A DNA stretch of 63,553 nt, filler included, from Perkinsus olseni (taxonomy: Eukaryota), in the NCBI GenBank assembly GCA_013115125.1. It is 29 parts of 29 records of this genome, joined end to end, with 100 filler letters (N's around TTAATTAATTAA, not from the genome) between each part and the next. Parts side by side here need not be neighbours in the genome. Positions count along the whole stretch, not along the records: positions 46,404 to 48,482 come from JABANN010001657.1; 28 more parts are not named here. One strand, 5' to 3'. Every line of letters starts with the position of its first letter. Position 1 is the stretch's first letter. A model generated the notes under the pieces. The model was given only the letters and a program-made list of their open reading frames with translations. It searched no databases and had not been told where the DNA came from. Shown here piece by piece: positions 36,964 through 57,253 of this stretch. The position numbers were made by a program, and so were the translations under genes.

Positions 36964-37031
36964 CCAACTGAGCACATCGGCAAGAGTCTAACTAATCCAT
37001 TACTGGCGTTGGACTATAAACTCACACACAC
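36964..37031 (+). repeat. Dispersed repeat copy 1 (stem-loop plus (CA)n end)
   Basis: Near-identical to 48583-48655 on an unrelated contig. Confidence 0.85.
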
Positions 37032-44219: not shown

Positions 44220-46303
44220 AAAGGCGTAGTGGGAGAGGATGATGCCCGACAGCAGTGAGCTGAGATGATGGCCGATGACGATGGGGATGACACTTCTGCG
44301 GAGGTGACCGGGACGTCGTTAGAGGTCTGAGTCGCAGCACTCTGCAGTGGAGGATATGGAGGAAGGGGAACTTTGTCGGACTTGAGCCGTATACCCAACC
44401 TGCCGAACATGTTGCGGCCGATGATGACCCTCGGGTTGCATAGTGGAACCAACAGGAACACCAGAGTGGCCGTGTTGGCATTATCCTGACACTGATGATC
44501 AGCGAGACGGCAGTTGATGCGCAGAACCGTCTTGGTTTGGACCACAGTGTGGTTGCCGAAAGTGACCTGAGCTGGGCTCACCAATCCGCTGAAGCTGTTG
44601 CCGTCCACGAGACCATTCCGGTGTAGGAAGTCACAGACGCTCTGGTCCATGAGAGATAGATTAGCACCAGTGTCGACGAGAGCAGGGGTCTCGCAGTACT
44701 CAGCATCAGGGTCCTTGCCAATCCGCAAGGTGATAGTAGGATCCTCCGAGACGCCATCCAATAGCGAGGCAACAGTGCTCGAGTTGGCTGCCCTGACATT
44801 AACAGCTGCTGTCCGCACAACCTTGAGGTCCGACTCGTCGGCAGGAGCGGCTGTTGCTGTCGATGTCGGTGTGATGGTCTTCAGACAGATGCCAGCCAGG
44901 TGGTGCCGCCTCTTGCATCGAGCACACACAAAGGCCTTGGAGTTGCACTTGTGGTCAGGCTTCTTGATGCAGCCGCATCGGCGACAGCGCTCGTCCACGC
45001 GGATGATGGAAGAGGAATCAGCTCTGCAGTTGGCCGCGAAATGACCGCTTTGCCCACACCTGAGGCAGGCGTCTTTGCTGAGGCCAAGGTCAGTGGCAGC
45101 AGAGACACAGATGGCGACCACGTCGGCATCAGACAACTGCTTTGGGGATTTCCCAGACTGCTGGGACCTTTGACGACCAGAGTTGCCAGACAGGGTGTTG
45201 TTGACATCCGAGGCGATAGTCTGGGGAATATCATCGCATATGGAGACCAGTGAGTCCTTGTATGTGATGAAGTCCATCGTCTTCAGTGGGTCAACAAGAG
45301 CAGACATGAGGATAGCCCTAGAGTCACGGAGGCCACGATTGAAGCACCGTATGATAGTGGAGTCCTTGAGCACCTCGTCAGGAGATGTGGACTGCTTGAT
45401 GTGCAGAATTTCCTCAAACTTGATGGAGTACTGGAGGACAGACTCTCCCTGACCTTGATGTAGGCCATCGAACTTAGCGTCCAGGGCTTTGAGCGCAAGG
45501 CTGGTTCTAAAGCGCTTGTCCAGGACAGATATGACGGCCATTGCACCCTCGTCGACCATGCTTTGACGGCTGACTTGGCGCTTGATGAATGCTTTGATGG
45601 AACCCTTCAAGCATGAGATGACGGCCTCGGCCAGAACTTTGTTAGGGGCCTCGTCGGCATCGGCAAGTGTCTCGAGAATAGTCACCCGCCATTGCAGATA
45701 GTTGTCGGAGGAGGCGCCCGTGAAGATATGGTCGGCCGAAGGAGGGTCTCCAACAATGCACTTGATCTTCTTCTTCAGCTCATCATATGGGATGGCTGAT
45801 CCCAATGAAGATGTCCCCGACTGTGAAGCCTTTGGACCGTGGCTCGAGGGCAGAGAGCTGTAGGCGGAGAGAGTAGGAGACTCGATGTCGTCGGCGCTAG
45901 GTGTAGAGGAGTGCCGTGATGCAGCCCTCGACGCGCTGACGCTGATAGCGAGTTGTTCTTTAAACTCTTTCCTCCCCACTAACACCCGACCATGGTCCAT
46001 GTTGGCTGCCACATTGGTGATCGTCCAGTCGATGAGTGGGTCGAACCATGATGTGGTAATCTCGTCACCGATGGGGTAAGTGTAGATCATCTCGTCAGTG
46101 AGCCAATCGAATGATGGCCTCCACAGTTCACATAGAGCTGGGGCATCTTCAGCAGCAGTGACGTCGTCACGGAAGACTCCGCTCAGTGAGAGGATGTCTT
46201 GGACGCTGCCACTGAACTCAGATAGAAGTCGGAAGTACGAGGCGCCAGTCTTCTCATAGATGGCGGACTCGATCTCGTGTAGTTGCTTCAACAGGGAGGT
46301 TCT
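44220..46303 (-). mobile_element. LTR retrotransposon gag-protease, BEL/Pao-like
   Basis: Contig-spanning ORF with a capsid-like QGQGESVLQY motif and three zinc knuckles (CLRCGQSGHFAANC, CRRCGCIKKPDHKC, CARCKRRHHLAGIC). Aspartic protease ALVDTGAN...IIGRN is in the same frame. Confidence 0.9.
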
Positions 46304-46403: not shown

Positions 46404-47618
46404 TGATGACTCCGTTTTGCTACCCTTGCTCGATCTTATATGTGCATCGAGCTCAGACATAAGGTGCCCCATAGAAAGCTCCAAGCTTTGAGGAGCTTGA
46501 GACGGGCCAAACGACACAGCCGTAAAAAATGCAATGAAATCCTGGATCCTCACTACATTGAGTGCGTAGTTCGATGGGAAGAGAGCAAGGCTAAAATAGG
46601 CATCATGAAGGTCACAGAACAGCACTCTGCGGAAGAGCCGCGTCCTTATCATGATATCTCTGAGTTTACGTTGCTCAAAGTCTTGAAGAACCTTACTACG
46701 GCGTATAGCACGGTTAAGCAAGGAGTAGGTGAAGACTGGACGAGCCTTTTTACCAAAGACAACATACCACTGCGTAATAAGAGGATGCAAGTCAACCACA
46801 TCTAGCAAATTCTCCTTGCAGATACCATTCACTCGGATGAGCTTCTTAGATGAAGACCATCTCTCGAAGTAGGGTAGTGCTTCGGCAGGGAGAGGGTCAT
46901 CCTTGAGCTTACGATGATGATGTAGTTGCCCTTTGATCTCTGCAGTGCTGAAATCTCTAGCACACTGGGGATCGATACCGGTAAAGAACTTCTGCTGACC
47001 GTTCTCGTCAACCCCAATAGTAACAGCGAACTTCTGACCGCGGAAGACATCACAACAATGCTTCCAGCCTTCAGGATAACAGATCCACTCATCACCAGTA
47101 TAAGTAATACTGCAGAGCTTCTGAAAGTCAGCGTAAGAAATAGTACTACTCAAAATATTAGTAAGATCAGATAAAGCGACATCTAAAGCGACATTTGAAG
47201 TGTGATTTATAACAAGCTTACAAGGTTTACTGCTATAGTCAAGTAGTACGTTGTATTTAGAAAGGAAGTCGACTCCCAACAGGGGGTATCGCAACGACAT
47301 ACTGTCAAGAACATAAAAGTTATGCACAAATGTATGGGTTCCATCTGGCACTGAAAACGAAAGTTCTGCAACACAGTCCAAACTCTCAGTACTGGTAACA
47401 GTATTGACAGTACGAGACTGCGTTGCATAACGAAGATTAGGAACCGGAGAGACTAGGCGTAAAAGATGGCTAGGAAAAATAGACAACGATGAACCGGTAT
47501 CGAGTATAGCATCCAATACCAAGGAACCAATCTGGATAGCGATCTTACTACAAGGACCCATTGATAGCTGGAGCATGTCGGGTCTCACATTAAACGCATG
47601 CTCCTGACTTAGTTTCCC
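46404..47618 (-). CDS. LTR retrotransposon pol (protease plus start of RT), in the -1 frame relative to gag
   Basis: AILDTGSSLS...LLGVDFL; KARPVFTYSLLN; FCDLHDAYFSL; SFGPSQAP. Confidence 0.88.
47555..47618 (-). promoter_or_regulatory. Programmed -1 ribosomal frameshift signal (slippery heptamer plus pseudoknot)
   Basis: G GGA AAC (47618-47612) directly before the gag TAA, a 7-nt spacer, stem 1 GGAGCAUG/CAUGCUCC and stem 2 GACCC/GGGUC. Confidence 0.85.
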
Positions 47619-48451
47619 AAGTCCTGATCTTCAAAGTTAACGTCGCCGGCTCCTTCATCAATAGCCAGCATACCATTGGCATCACCAGATCCTATATTCT
47701 GTGGGCAATCCCGAGCAAGATGGCCCGTTTTACCACACGAATAGCATCTATTAAACCAAAAGGGGTCTTTCTGTGGGTATCGTCGACCCTTTCCTTTAGC
47801 TCCATCACCAAAGCCCTTACCACCTTTGCCGTTATAGTTGCCTTTGCCCTTACCCTTTCCACCAAAGTTAGACGGGTAATAACCAGCATAGAAACTCAGC
47901 TCTTGCTTCTGTTGATTGGCGGCTTCTTTACCACGAGTGATAATCTCAGCTCTCTCAACCATTTCATCGAGAGTCTGTAGCTTAAGTACCCTCAGCTTCT
48001 CGGCTACGTCAATATCGATACCACGAAGAAATTGGTTGCGGGCAAGGGCATCAGCAACTTGTGGTACCACAGTACTCCCACCAGTCATCAGCATCCGCTG
48101 AGATAGCTGCTTGAGATCATAGCTGAAATCAAGGAACGACTCATCATCATTCATGACCCTAGAGTTGAAGGCCTCAAAAGGGTCTTGCGTCAAGAGGCTA
48201 TGAATGAGAGAAGCCTTAACCTTATTCAGATCAGTACGATCAGATAACGGAATACGATCATAAGCAACTTGAACCTTGTCCTCAAGAAACAGCGGCACGT
48301 ACTCATAAGCTTTTTCACCCCAATTGTAGAACTTAGCGATCGTCTCAAACTTCTTGAACCAACCTTCCATCTTAGCGATGGTCAGCTTATCACCTGTTAA
48401 CGGGGCGGGTGTGACCTTCAGCTGCATACCAGGGGTAGACTCAGATACCAT
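47609..48451 (-). CDS. LTR retrotransposon gag
   Basis: Complete 280-aa ORF: WFKKFETIAKFYNW, QFLRGI, G/K-rich linker and CCHC knuckle CYSCGKTGHLARDC. Confidence 0.9.
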   Translation of the reverse strand: MVSESTPGMQLKVTPAPLTGDKLTIAKMEGWFKKFETIAKFYNWGEKAYEYVPLFLEDKVQVAYDRIPLSDRTDLNKVKASLIHSLLTQDPFEAFNSRVMNDDESFLDFSYDLKQLSQRMLMTGGSTVVPQVADALARNQFLRGIDIDVAEKLRVLKLQTLDEMVERAEIITRGKEAANQQKQELSFYAGYYPSNFGGKGKGKGNYNGKGGKGFGDGAKGKGRRYPQKDPFWFNRCYSCGKTGHLARDCPQNIGSGDANGMLAIDEGAGDVNFEDQDLGN

Positions 48452-48582
48452 TTTCGTTCAAAGGACTGCTCGAGAATCGGGGNNNNNNNNNNNNNNNNNN
48501 NNNNNNNNNNNNNNNNNNNNNNNNNNTTAATTAATTAANNNNNNNNNNNNNNNNNNNNNNNNNNNNNNNNNNNNNNNNNNNN

Positions 48583-48655
48583 CCAACTGTGCACATCGGC
48601 AAGAGTCTAACTAAGCCGGAACCGGCGTTGGACTATAAACTCACACACACACACA
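48583..48655 (+). repeat. Dispersed repeat copy 2 (stem-loop plus (CA)n end)
   Basis: Near-identical to 36964-37031 and located at the contig start. Confidence 0.85.
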
Positions 48656-54993: not shown

Positions 54994-55093
54994 NNNNNNN
55001 NNNNNNNNNNNNNNNNNNNNNNNNNNNNNNNNNNNNNTTAATTAATTAANNNNNNNNNNNNNNNNNNNNNNNNNNNNNNNNNNNNNNNNNNNN

Positions 55094-56057
55094 TCCACAG
55101 TCAGATTTCACATCCATTCCACTTATAGCAGCTTTACCGCTCGAAGACAGGATTCTTTCAACTTGCACCCTCCCCATGAGGTCGAAGAGAGCTACGTCAA
55201 TCGGCATCACGAACACTCTATCAACTGCATGGTTGTTTGCACGAACTCGATGAGGATCTGTGCATTGTCGACAAGGTGGGGTGGCAAGGTACACGACAGC
55301 CGAGTTTTCAGGAACTCTTCATTGGCTGCTAGATTGGACGGTGGGTGGCGACCCGATGGCTTGGATGTGGTTCTTATCGGTGACAGCGGTTACAGAGCTA
55401 CGCCCTACCTGAAGACTCCCATATCTATGGCTGGCGGCAGGGTGTTGATCAACTACAATTCAATGAGAGGCATCGTAGGGCGCGTGTGGTCATTGAGCGG
55501 TGCATCGGTGTTTTGAAGACCCAGTTTCGTTGTTTGAAGGACTTGAGGTTGCGGGGTTCTCGCCGTACTACTGAGGACACCTTGACGTTGACAGCTCAGG
55601 CGATCCGGGCTTGTGCTGCTCTGCGAAACTTTCTCATAGTTCACGTGGCTGATCGAGAAGAAGATATTGATTCTGACATAGCGGAAATGTCAGACTCCGA
55701 GCTTGAGTCAGGTCCTGAGTAATTACGCTATATATTATTAGAATAAGCTGTGCAAGCTTGGTCTTTGTAAGTTATCGTTTCAGTAACGTGCCCGGGGGAG
55801 ATGTCGTGTTTCGCGCACAAGTGCACGAAGGATACTTTTCCGCCGGTAGCTTGATTCTCCGAGCTGGGGGTTGTTTCCCGAGGAAAGACTTGAACATTCA
55901 AGAAACCTACCCTTGCTCGGAAGTTGGAGAAAATGCTCGGAAAATTTACCCGACTACTTTGATGCGCGACAACTCGGAAAATTGCCAGTCGGGTTCGGAA
56001 CCCGGACGATCCCCCTCGGACTCGGAACCCGGAAAGCAAAAGTACTTGAATAGGCCC
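55094..56057 (+). mobile_element. PIF/Harbinger element 3' part (frameshifted transposase, subterminal repeats, TIR), copy A
   Basis: YVNRHHEHSINCMVVC, WGGKVHDSRVF, LIGDSGY, FNERHRRARVVIERCIGVLKTQFRCL and ACAALRNF (DDE_Tnp_4 pattern). Frameshift near 55420-55455. It ends ...GAATAGGCCC followed by CTG. Confidence 0.9.
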
Positions 56058-56189
56058 CTGGTCCGCGCGCTCAGCGAACGGGGACGTAGCTCTCGCCCGA
56101 CTAATTCCTCTCCATGTCGTTCAATAGAAAGGTTCTATAGGTTCTACCGGTGGTTTGACATCATGTATGGTACCTTCCTTACTCTCCTG

Positions 56190-57153
56190 GGGCCTATTCA
56201 AGTACTTTTGCTTTCCGGGTTCCGAGTCCGAGGGGGATCGTCCGGGTTCCGAACCCGACTGGCAATTTTCCGAGTTGTCGCGCATCAAAGTAGTCGGGTA
56301 AATTTTCCGAGCATTTTCTCCAACTTCCGAGCAAGGGTAGGTTTCTTGAATGTTCAAGTCTTTCCTCGGGAAACAACCCCCAGCTCGGAGAATCAAGCTA
56401 CCGGCGGAAAAGTATCCTTCGTGCACTTGTGCGCGAAACACGACATCTCCCCCGGGCACGTTACTGAAACGATAACTTACAAAGACCAAGCTTGCACAGC
56501 TTATTCTAATAATATATAGCGTAATTACTCAGGACCTGACTCAAGCTCGGAGTCTGACATTTCCGCTATGTCAGAATCAATATCTTCTTCTCGATCAGCC
56601 ACGTGAACTATGAGAAAGTTTCGCAGAGCAGCACAAGCCCGGATCGCCTGAGCTGTCAACGTCAAGGTGTCCTCAGTAGTACGGCGAGAACCCCGCAACC
56701 TCAAGTCCTTCAAACAACGAAACTGGGTCTTCAAAACACCGATGCACCGCTCAATGACCACACGCGCCCTACGATGCCTCTCATTGAATTGTAGTTGATC
56801 AACACCCTGCCGCCAGCCATAGATATGGGAGTCTTCAGGTAGGGCGTAGCTCTGTAACCGCTGTCACCGATAAGAACCACATCCAAGCCATCGGGTCGCC
56901 ACCCACCGTCCAATCTAGCAGCCAATGAAGAGTTCCTGAAAACTCGGCTGTCGTGTACCTTGCCACCCCACCTTGTCGACAATGCACAGATCCTCATCGA
57001 GTTCGTGCAAACAACCATGCAGTTGATAGAGTGTTCGTGATGCCGATTGACGTAGCTCTCTTCGACCTCATGGGGAGGGTGCAAGTTGAAAGAATCCTGT
57101 CTTCGAGCGGTAAAGCTGCTATAAGTGGAATGGATGTGAAATCTGACTGTGGA
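56190..57153 (-). mobile_element. PIF/Harbinger element 3' part, copy B (reverse complement of copy A)
   Basis: Mirror-image ORF set identical to copy A. The end GGGCCTATTC is preceded by CTG (CAG on the element strand). Confidence 0.9.
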
Positions 57154-57253
57154 NNNNNNNNNNNNNNNNNNNNNNNNNNNNNNNNNNNNNNNNNNNNTTA
57201 ATTAATTAANNNNNNNNNNNNNNNNNNNNNNNNNNNNNNNNNNNNNNNNNNNN

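What the first reader, a model, noticed from the sequence alone, without database searches (positions are those of the whole stretch)
47555..47618. Complete -1 ribosomal frameshift cassette with H-type pseudoknot between gag and pol
On the minus strand gag ends GAC TTG GGA AAC TAA. G GGA AAC is a canonical X XXY YYZ heptamer in the correct phase, and the -1 frame (KLSQEHAFNVRPDMLQ...) is open into the protease. Seven nt downstream is an 8-bp stem (GGAGCAUG/CAUGCUCC) whose loop GACCC can pair with GGGUC 10 nt after the stem. This is the retroviral-type stimulator architecture, here in a protist LTR element. The motifs are seen directly; function is inferred.
Basis: partly seen in the sequence, partly recalled or inferred. 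Interest (0 to 1): 0.75.

Follow-up and report, generated by a model that had tools for sequence, protein, structure and literature searches.

The report
Frameshift signal in a Perkinsus retrotransposon
A jumping gene of the shellfish parasite Perkinsus carries a textbook signal that makes some ribosomes slip back one base to make its enzymes; the slip site and first RNA stem are conserved, the proposed RNA knot is plausible but not conserved, and the mechanism is already well known elsewhere.

Summary
The motifs are all present. The gag/pol overlap is only 19 nt and holds G_GGA_AAC in -1 phase (chance about 0.004), then a 7-nt spacer and an 8-bp stem 1. A sister element with saturated third positions (34-35% identity) keeps the heptamer (7/7), the spacer length and both stem-1 arms (16/16). 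Two Perkinsus marinus Gag proteins also end Gly-Asn. In this genome 14 gag/pol junctions have pol in -1 with an in-phase N_NNA_AAC, 10 of them G_GGA_AAC. Programmed -1 frameshifting is therefore very likely (about 0.88), but no product was observed. Stem 2 is better than described (6 bp, one wedge A; 10/1000 shuffles match it). However, the sister keeps only 3 of its 6 pairs, with no compensatory change. The pseudoknot is at most subfamily-specific (about 0.5); the conserved core is a stem-loop. This is a new member of a known kind (PEG10/PNMA3/retroviral type).

The parts
47609..48451 (-). gag ORF, ATG to TAA, 280 aa, with one CCHC zinc knuckle at about 47699-47749
   Evidence: Pfam zf-CCHC E 6.7e-8, over cut-off; homologues 47-85% identical in Perkinsus marinus and P. 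olseni
46404..47630 (-). pol ORF in the -1 frame, open to the contig end: aspartic protease (DTG at 47501-47493) and the first part of reverse transcriptase
   Evidence: Asp_protease_2 22.2 bits, under cut-off, and 25.7 bits, over cut-off; 242/245 identical to part of a 1,318-aa P. olseni model (P0044) that continues into RT, RNase H and integrase regions
47612..47630 (-). 19-nt gag/pol overlap, bounded upstream by a TGA in the -1 frame (47633-47631); a -1 shift must occur inside it
47612..47618 (-). slippery heptamer G_GGA_AAC in -1 phase (Gly-Asn, last two gag codons)
   Evidence: 7/7 identical in sister element C497
47605..47611 (-). 7-nt spacer, beginning with the gag stop TAA
   Evidence: length kept, sequence not (2/7) in C497
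47597..47604 (-). stem 1, 5' arm
   Evidence: 8/8 identical in C497
47585..47596 (-). loop 1 of the candidate pseudoknot (12 nt)
   Evidence: only 3 of 6 pairs possible at the homologous place in C497
47578..47578 (-). single unpaired A between the stems (wedge-A position of MMTV-type pseudoknots)
   Evidence: G at this place in C497; wedge A described in PMC5009743
47570..47577 (-). stem 1, 3' arm; holds an ATG in the pol frame (47576-47574)
   Evidence: 8/8 identical in C497
47561..47569 (-). loop 3 of the candidate pseudoknot (9 nt)
47555..47560 (-). candidate stem 2, 3' arm
47606..47623 (-). 7-bp hairpin with a GAAA loop that covers the slip site and most of the spacer; not shared by other junctions
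   Evidence: p 0.004 here, Fisher p 0.55 for 10 other junctions

Best explanation
This is the gag-pol programmed -1 ribosomal frameshift signal of a Perkinsus LTR-type retrotransposon (domain order protease, RT, RNase H, integrase). Most ribosomes stop at the TAA right after G_GGA_AAC and release Gag. A minority pause at the structure that starts 7 nt downstream; tRNA-Gly and tRNA-Asn slip one base back, and translation continues in the pol frame to give Gag-Pol. Shown: the motifs, the 19-nt overlap, conservation of heptamer and stem 1, and recurrence at 14 junctions. Inferred: slippage, pausing and the product ratio. The conserved stimulator core is the 8-bp stem 1. In this subfamily a 6-bp stem 2 may close it into an H-type pseudoknot with a wedge A (about even odds). 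In the sister subfamily the same stem is extended into a longer hairpin instead.
For: The heptamer is in phase in a 19-nt overlap, P about 0.004. Sister element C497: Gag 50% and Pol 47% identical, third codon positions 35% and 34%, yet heptamer 7/7 and stem 1 16/16 identical against spacer 2/7 and upstream 12/30; naive P(23/23) 2-5e-7. The stem-1 pattern occurs only at these two junctions in 39.9 Mb. P. marinus Gags P0001 (78% identical) and P0038 end in Gly-Asn too. Of 55 protease loci, 32 have a Cys/His knuckle in frame upstream, 9 have pol in -1 with an in-phase heptamer and 14 could not be placed in either group. Of the 11 -1 candidates among the 55, 9 have a heptamer. All 14 end in A_AAC. 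The best hairpin starts 4-8 nt downstream at 12 of 14 and 10 nt downstream at 2. Another sample (X8) has a contig across the cassette with no indel listed at the junction, so a one-off assembly error is unlikely. G_GGA_AAC is among the most shift-prone eukaryotic heptamers, and spacers of 5-9 nt are typical (PMC5009743 passages). For stem 2: 10/1000 shuffles; the only junction of 14 where a crude pseudoknot energy beats the nested fold (-16.4 against -14.3).
Against: No trans-frame product, ribosome pause or transcript was observed. Stem 1 never varies, so there is no covariation. Stem 2 is not conserved in C497 (3 of 6 pairs), and the comparison rests on two sequences. The pseudoknot energy is my own rough model with recalled penalty constants, not a pseudoknot-aware program. 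Single downstream folds are mostly not unusual: z below -2 at 4 of 14 junctions and -0.72 here. Two of the 14 sites (C148, C1438) have non-canonical first triplets in long overlaps, with a 15-17% chance each. Three of the 14 were found with a pattern that contained the heptamer. Public gene models bridge the frame change by predicted introns (P0044, P0048, P0035).
Confidence: 0.88

Rival explanations
1. Frameshifting is real, but the stimulator is only the stem-loop; stem 2 is a chance complementarity of this copy. This competes with the pseudoknot half of the best explanation, not with -1 slippage; the confidence is conditional on frameshifting.
For: C497 keeps stem 1 exactly but only 3 of 6 stem-2 pairs, and its loop folds into a longer hairpin (-16.6 against -12.6 kcal/mol). 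In one search, 7 of 10 junctions tested have best stem 2 matched by more than 10% of shuffles. 118/2000 shuffles match stem 2 when geometry is free. Simple stem-loops are known stimulators (PMC5009743 passage).
Against: Stem 2 here is the strongest of those tested (-12.2 kcal/mol stacking; 10/1000, 23/2000 and 0/628 in three controls). It sits flush on stem 1 with one unpaired A and a 9-nt loop 3. The hairpin alone is weaker than the sister's, so stem 2 could make up the difference. C3194 has an independent classical geometry (10-bp and 7-bp stems, 36/1000).
Confidence: 0.48
2. Pol is reached by splicing: an intron removes the frame change, as the public gene models assume.
For: P0044 joins Gag to Pol at a place that corresponds to a GT at window 47853 and an AG at 47184-47183. 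P0048 and P0035 also join the frames. An earlier, unchecked note reports splicing inside another Perkinsus pol (e1-7224196).
Against: The three models use different joins, and each deletes the zinc knuckle and the protease active site, though both are conserved between C725 and C497. Splicing would not explain the conserved heptamer, or its presence at 14 junctions. Run X7 (RNA only by guess) has one contig from 46420 to 47623 with no joint (contigs drop rare forms, so this is weak).
Confidence: 0.05
3. Pol starts on its own at the ATG in the 3' arm of stem 1, by reinitiation after the gag stop or on a separate spliced-leader-capped mRNA.
For: The ATG (47576-47574) is in the pol frame, 25 codons before the catalytic Asp, and is kept in C497. 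Earlier unchecked notes report spliced-leader copies in Perkinsus retrotransposons (e1-7243590).
Against: Four other -1 junctions read (C3194, C377, C3213, C3225) have no Met between the upstream stop and the protease active site. The ATG is part of the conserved stem, which explains its retention. The heptamer would be unexplained. Packaging of Pol normally needs the Gag fusion (recalled).
Confidence: 0.04
4. The frame change is a disabling mutation or an assembly error in a dead copy, and the motifs are chance.
For: The contig is short (2,079 bases) and one close in-frame/-1 pair of elements exists in the genome (C3194 against C3231 and C103).
Against: The same arrangement is found in C497 at saturated divergence, the Gag ends in P. 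marinus agree, and no junction indel is listed in sample X8.
Confidence: 0.01

Closest known systems
PEG10 (Ty3/gypsy-derived mammalian gene) gag-pol -1 frameshift signal
   Same: Same heptamer GGGAAAC followed by a downstream structure, between gag and pol (PMC13622457, passages).
   Different: PEG10's compact H-type pseudoknot is experimentally required and conserved across mammals. Here stem 2 is not conserved in the sister element, loop 1 is 12 nt, and the host is an alveolate.
MMTV gag-pro / SRV-1 / PNMA3 wedge-A H-type pseudoknots
   Same: Two short stems with one unpaired A at the junction, a few bases 3' of a classical heptamer (PMC5009743 passages).
   Different: Stem 1 is 8 bp and loop 1 is long (a long loop 1 is known from Visna-Maedi virus). 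The fold is predicted only, and the A is a G in the sister.
-1 gag/pol arrangement of Ty3/gypsy-type LTR retrotransposons
   Same: 28 of 51 animal elements in a 2003 survey had pol in -1, many with classical heptamers (PMC5009743 passage). [quoted passage not shown]
   Different: I found no report for Perkinsus or other alveolate nuclear elements. Here all 14 junctions found end in A_AAC.
Perkinsus mitochondrial frameshifting (cox1, cob, cox3)
   Same: Same genus; programmed frameshifting (PMC9550989 passages; PMC2952869 listing).
   Different: That system works on mitochondrial ribosomes at AGG/CCC codons within single genes. This one is a cytoplasmic tandem -1 slip with a 3' structure; no link is implied.

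Membership tests
Eukaryotic -1 programmed frameshift signal | X_XXY_YYZ heptamer in phase inside the overlap of two ORFs | tested here: met
   G_GGA_AAC in a 19-nt overlap; P about 0.004
Eukaryotic -1 programmed frameshift signal | Stimulatory structure starting 5-9 nt downstream | tested here: met
   8-bp stem at 7 nt, predicted; typical range from PMC5009743
Eukaryotic -1 programmed frameshift signal | Signal conserved in relatives while synonymous sites diverge | tested here: met
   heptamer 7/7 and stem 1 16/16 against 34-35% at third positions, one relative; Gly-Asn ends of two P. marinus Gags
Eukaryotic -1 programmed frameshift signal | Trans-frame product made | not testable with these tools
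   no proteomic or ribosome data available
H-type pseudoknot stimulator | Loop bases pair with bases 3' of stem 1 in feasible geometry | tested here: met
   6 bp; loops of 12, 1 and 9 nt; 10/1000 shuffles
H-type pseudoknot stimulator | Stem 2 conserved or covarying in relatives | tested here: not met
   3 of 6 pairs, none compensatory, in C497; best alternative at chance level; only one relative
H-type pseudoknot stimulator | Pseudoknot more stable than nested alternatives | tested here: inconclusive
   -16.4 against -14.3 kcal/mol in a rough own model with recalled constants; no pseudoknot-aware program available
LTR retrotransposon of Ty3/gypsy (Metaviridae) gene order | gag with zinc knuckle, then protease, RT, RNase H, integrase in that order | tested here: met
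   CCHC and protease in the window; RNase H domains precomputed for P0039; integrase at the end of P0035 and full order in the related P0010; P0044 is 99% identical over 245 aa and labelled integrase-containing by its source
LTR retrotransposon of Ty3/gypsy (Metaviridae) gene order | Long terminal repeats | tested here: inconclusive
   none on this 2,079-base contig; in the sister subfamily an identical 149-nt stretch lies upstream of gag (C1671) and downstream of integrase (C454)
LTR retrotransposon of Ty3/gypsy (Metaviridae) gene order | RT groups with Metaviridae rather than Belpaoviridae in a tree with references | not tested
   no reference RTs were available; no BEL/Pao-type Pfam family was hit (family names recalled)

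The most novel reading that the evidence does not exclude
Perkinsus retrotransposons have repeatedly switched between in-frame gag-pol and a -1 cassette that always uses A_AAC in the A site (14 of 14 junctions; the label needs at least 2 changes on well-supported branches and about 8 on the best tree). They swap the stimulator between hairpin and pseudoknot. In this family the stem-1 arms are kept letter for letter, without one compensatory change at saturated divergence, because a trans-acting factor (for example Gag itself) reads their sequence and regulates the shift.
Probability: 0.12. Interest if true: 0.6.

Novelty: new member of a known kind. Interest (0 to 1): 0.3.

Why it matters
It extends canonical -1 tandem slippage to nuclear retrotransposons of an early-branching relative of dinoflagellates, a genus known so far for a different, mitochondrial frameshifting. 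It supplies 14 natural cassettes with one A-site codon and varied stimulators, including a sister pair with the same stem 1 with and without stem 2: a ready comparison of hairpin against pseudoknot. It also suggests that public Perkinsus gene models bridging gag and pol with introns are probably wrong. The mechanism itself is textbook.

Tried and rejected
Rfam: 1 match, to an unrelated snoRNA model at E 3.1 and outside the cassette. DNA search of the own genome: only the locus itself. Full cassette pattern in metagenome contigs: 0 matches. Gag search in metagenome contigs: 2 loci, matching only the knuckle region; not used. Heptamer plus 5' arm in viral contigs: at least 120 matches of a 15-base pattern; not examined, not used. 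Search for longer Pol homologues: none at E 0.001 or better. No P. marinus Pol or DNA was found, so stem 2 could not be checked there. Sequencing runs: no RNA holder listed on record. In one search, 4 of 21 listed runs were laid, all contigs. The 30-base uncovered stretch 47624-47653 in X7 and the end of an X17 contig at 47612 are not interpretable. For X8, 11 of the 15 substitutions of the contig spanning the cassette were listed, none inside 47555-47618; the table was cut, so this is no proof. Idea that slip sites are generally hidden in a hairpin: rejected (Fisher p 0.12 over all 14; 0.55 for the 10 left after removing this locus and the 3 pattern-found ones). The pattern AGTCGGGAAAC gave 19 places, of which 6 are gag/pol junctions (3 new) and 13 are not; the reversed control gave 13. 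A first impression that the RT is BEL/Pao-like was not supported by Pfam and was left open. Protease tree: 9 of 35 in-frame loci were dropped because no motif pair was found; 7 of 37 inner branches are well supported, so it cannot give the number of origins.

Full report
OBSERVATION. The window is a string of short contigs joined by N linkers; the finding lies on one of 2,079 bases (window 46404-48482, G000:C725). On the minus strand a 280-aa gag ORF with a CCHC knuckle (Pfam E 6.7e-8) ends G_GGA_AAC TAA. The -1 frame opens after a TGA at 47633-47631 and runs through an aspartic protease motif into RT-like sequence to the contig end. The overlap is 19 nt. Stem 2 can be 6 bp, leaving loops of 12, 1 and 9 nt.

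IS IT MORE THAN CHANCE. In long ORFs of 49 retroelement loci of this genome, canonical heptamers lie in phase at 20 of 28,010 codon positions and G_GGA_AAC at none; a 19-nt overlap would hold one with P about 0.004. The two stem-1 arms within 30 nt of each other occur at 2 places in 39.9 Mb, both gag/pol junctions, against 0 for the reversed control. Stem 2 is matched by 118/2000 shuffles with free geometry, 23/2000 with strict geometry, 0/628 other windows of the contig and 10/1000 downstream shuffles. The nested fold alone is ordinary (z -1.18). Rfam has no match to the cassette.

WHAT THE ELEMENT IS. Six of the seven Gag homologues found are from Perkinsus marinus or P. olseni (47-85% identical); the seventh is a weak plant hit. 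A sister element's Gag is identical to a P. olseni record. A 1,318-aa P. olseni model is 242/245 identical to the window's Pol and continues through RT, RNase H and integrase regions. Related proteins give the order protease, RT, RNase H, integrase, the Ty3/gypsy order. No LTR is on this contig. In the sister subfamily an identical 149-nt stretch lies upstream of gag and downstream of integrase. Placement between Metaviridae and Belpaoviridae was not tested with references.

THE KEY COMPARISON. The only relative with a junction in this genome is C497. Gag is 50% and Pol 47% identical, and third codon positions are at 35% and 34%. The heptamer is 7/7 identical and in phase, the spacer is again 7 nt but 2/7 identical, both stem-1 arms are 8/8 identical, the loop is 3 nt shorter, and the 30 nt upstream are 12/30 identical. 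At the place of stem 2 the sister can form 3 of 6 pairs (two unchanged, one changed on one side), with no compensatory change. Its best stem 2 anywhere is matched by about half of shuffles; its loop instead extends the hairpin (-16.6 against -12.6 kcal/mol). So selection keeps the slip site, the spacer length and stem 1, and not stem 2. Stem 1 does not vary, so its pairing is not shown by covariation, and part of its conservation may come from the Pol residues it encodes.

GENOME SURVEY. I examined 55 protease loci. Of these, 32 have a Cys/His knuckle in frame upstream, 9 have pol in -1 with an in-phase heptamer, and 14 could not be placed in either group. Eleven were -1 candidates; the two without a heptamer are C2858 (no knuckle, overlap covering the protease) and C142 (gap of N). 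One more junction came from the Gag search, one from 11 further protease loci and three from a pattern search with 19 hits. Of the 14, ten are G_GGA_AAC, one C_CCA_AAC, one A_AAA_AAC and two non-canonical (weak; 15-17% by chance each). All end in A_AAC. Their proteases are at most 37% identical to each other where they match, and they are mixed with in-frame elements in a poorly resolved tree (at least 2 changes forced). The best hairpin starts 4-8 nt downstream at 12 of 14. In a rough pseudoknot model (Turner stacking plus recalled penalty constants) the pseudoknot beats the nested fold at 1 of 14 junctions, this one; C3194 is a near tie. These counts are lower bounds of a fragmented assembly.

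READS. Four of 21 listed runs were laid, all as contigs. Sample X8 has a contig across the cassette with 15 substitutions and 6 gap letters; the listed gaps lie near 47173-47180, not at the junction. Run X7, RNA only by guess, is continuous from 46420 to 47623 without a joint. Expression is not shown.

MECHANISM. Shown: motifs, overlap, conservation, recurrence. Inferred from established knowledge: tandem slippage of tRNA-Gly and tRNA-Asn while the ribosome meets the downstream structure, giving a minority of Gag-Pol and a majority of Gag. I put this at 0.88. Given frameshifting, I put the pseudoknot in this subfamily at about even odds: for it, the strength and geometry of stem 2, the wedge A and the weaker hairpin; against it, the sister. 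Splicing (0.05) is what three public gene models assume, but they differ from each other and delete the knuckle and the protease active site. Separate initiation at the ATG in stem 1 (0.04) cannot be general, since four other junctions have no Met before the active site.

COMPARISON WITH WHAT IS KNOWN. From passages of PMC5009743: G_GGA_AAC is among the most shift-prone heptamers; spacers are mostly 5-9 nt; stimulators range from simple stem-loops to H-type pseudoknots; MMTV-type knots have a wedge A; Visna-Maedi virus has a long loop 1; 28 of 51 animal LTR elements have pol in -1. From passages of PMC13622457: PEG10 uses GGGAAAC and an H-type pseudoknot. [quoted passage not shown] From passages of PMC9550989: Perkinsus mitochondria frameshift in all genes, a separate system. 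Searches for a description of nuclear -1 cassettes in Perkinsus or dinoflagellate retrotransposons (listings and abstract starts only) found none. The library holds open-access papers only, supplements were not read, and repeat databases could not be searched, so such an annotation may exist. Earlier notes of this scan: three look-ups returned nothing; one showed 8 of 33 fitting notes on this genome, none on a -1 cassette.

VERDICT. Real, and very probably a working -1 frameshift signal; the pseudoknot is possible but not a family feature. It works like the PEG10/retroviral signal and meets the sequence criteria for that class. Membership among pseudoknot stimulators is not established, because the conservation test was not met. 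New member of a known kind; interest 0.3.

Noticed in passing
   Followed up: no
window 47606-47623, minus strand: A 7-bp hairpin with a GAAA loop covers the slip site and most of the spacer (p 0.004 against flank shuffles); not shared by the other junctions.
   Followed up: yes
L010 (G000:C3194) against L011 (C3231) and L006 (C103): Close relatives (protease 44-50% identical, branch support 99/98) differ in gag-pol arrangement: -1 with G_GGA_AAC and a classical-looking pseudoknot in one, in frame in two. The P. chesapeaki model P0009 contains a stretch like the -1 frame right after C3194's heptamer.
   Followed up: partly
L123 (G000:C291): G_GGA_AAC, stop, then an 11-bp GC-rich stem with a possible 8-bp stem 2 in infectious-bronchitis-virus-like geometry; the nested fold wins in the rough model and 119/1000 shuffles match it.
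   Followed up: partly
L031, L052, L004, L057 (12 bases upstream of the heptamer): Four of the ten junctions listed have AGTC directly before the heptamer; searching with it found three more. Reason unknown.
   Followed up: partly
window 44220-46303, minus strand: A different retroelement fragment on the neighbouring contig has gag (several Cys/His motifs) and protease in one frame.
   Followed up: no
window 54994-57253: A whole contig is a perfect inverted repeat around a 124-base centre; possibly an assembly artefact.
   Followed up: no
window 36964-37031 and 48583-48650: A 68-base repeat, 91% identical, ending in a CA run, on two different contigs.
   Followed up: no
whole window: The window is about 29 short contigs joined by N linkers with TTAATTAATTAA, so neighbouring segments are not genomic neighbours.
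   Followed up: yes
P0044, P0048, P0035: Public P. olseni gene models join gag to pol by predicted introns that remove the zinc knuckle and the protease active site.
   Followed up: partly
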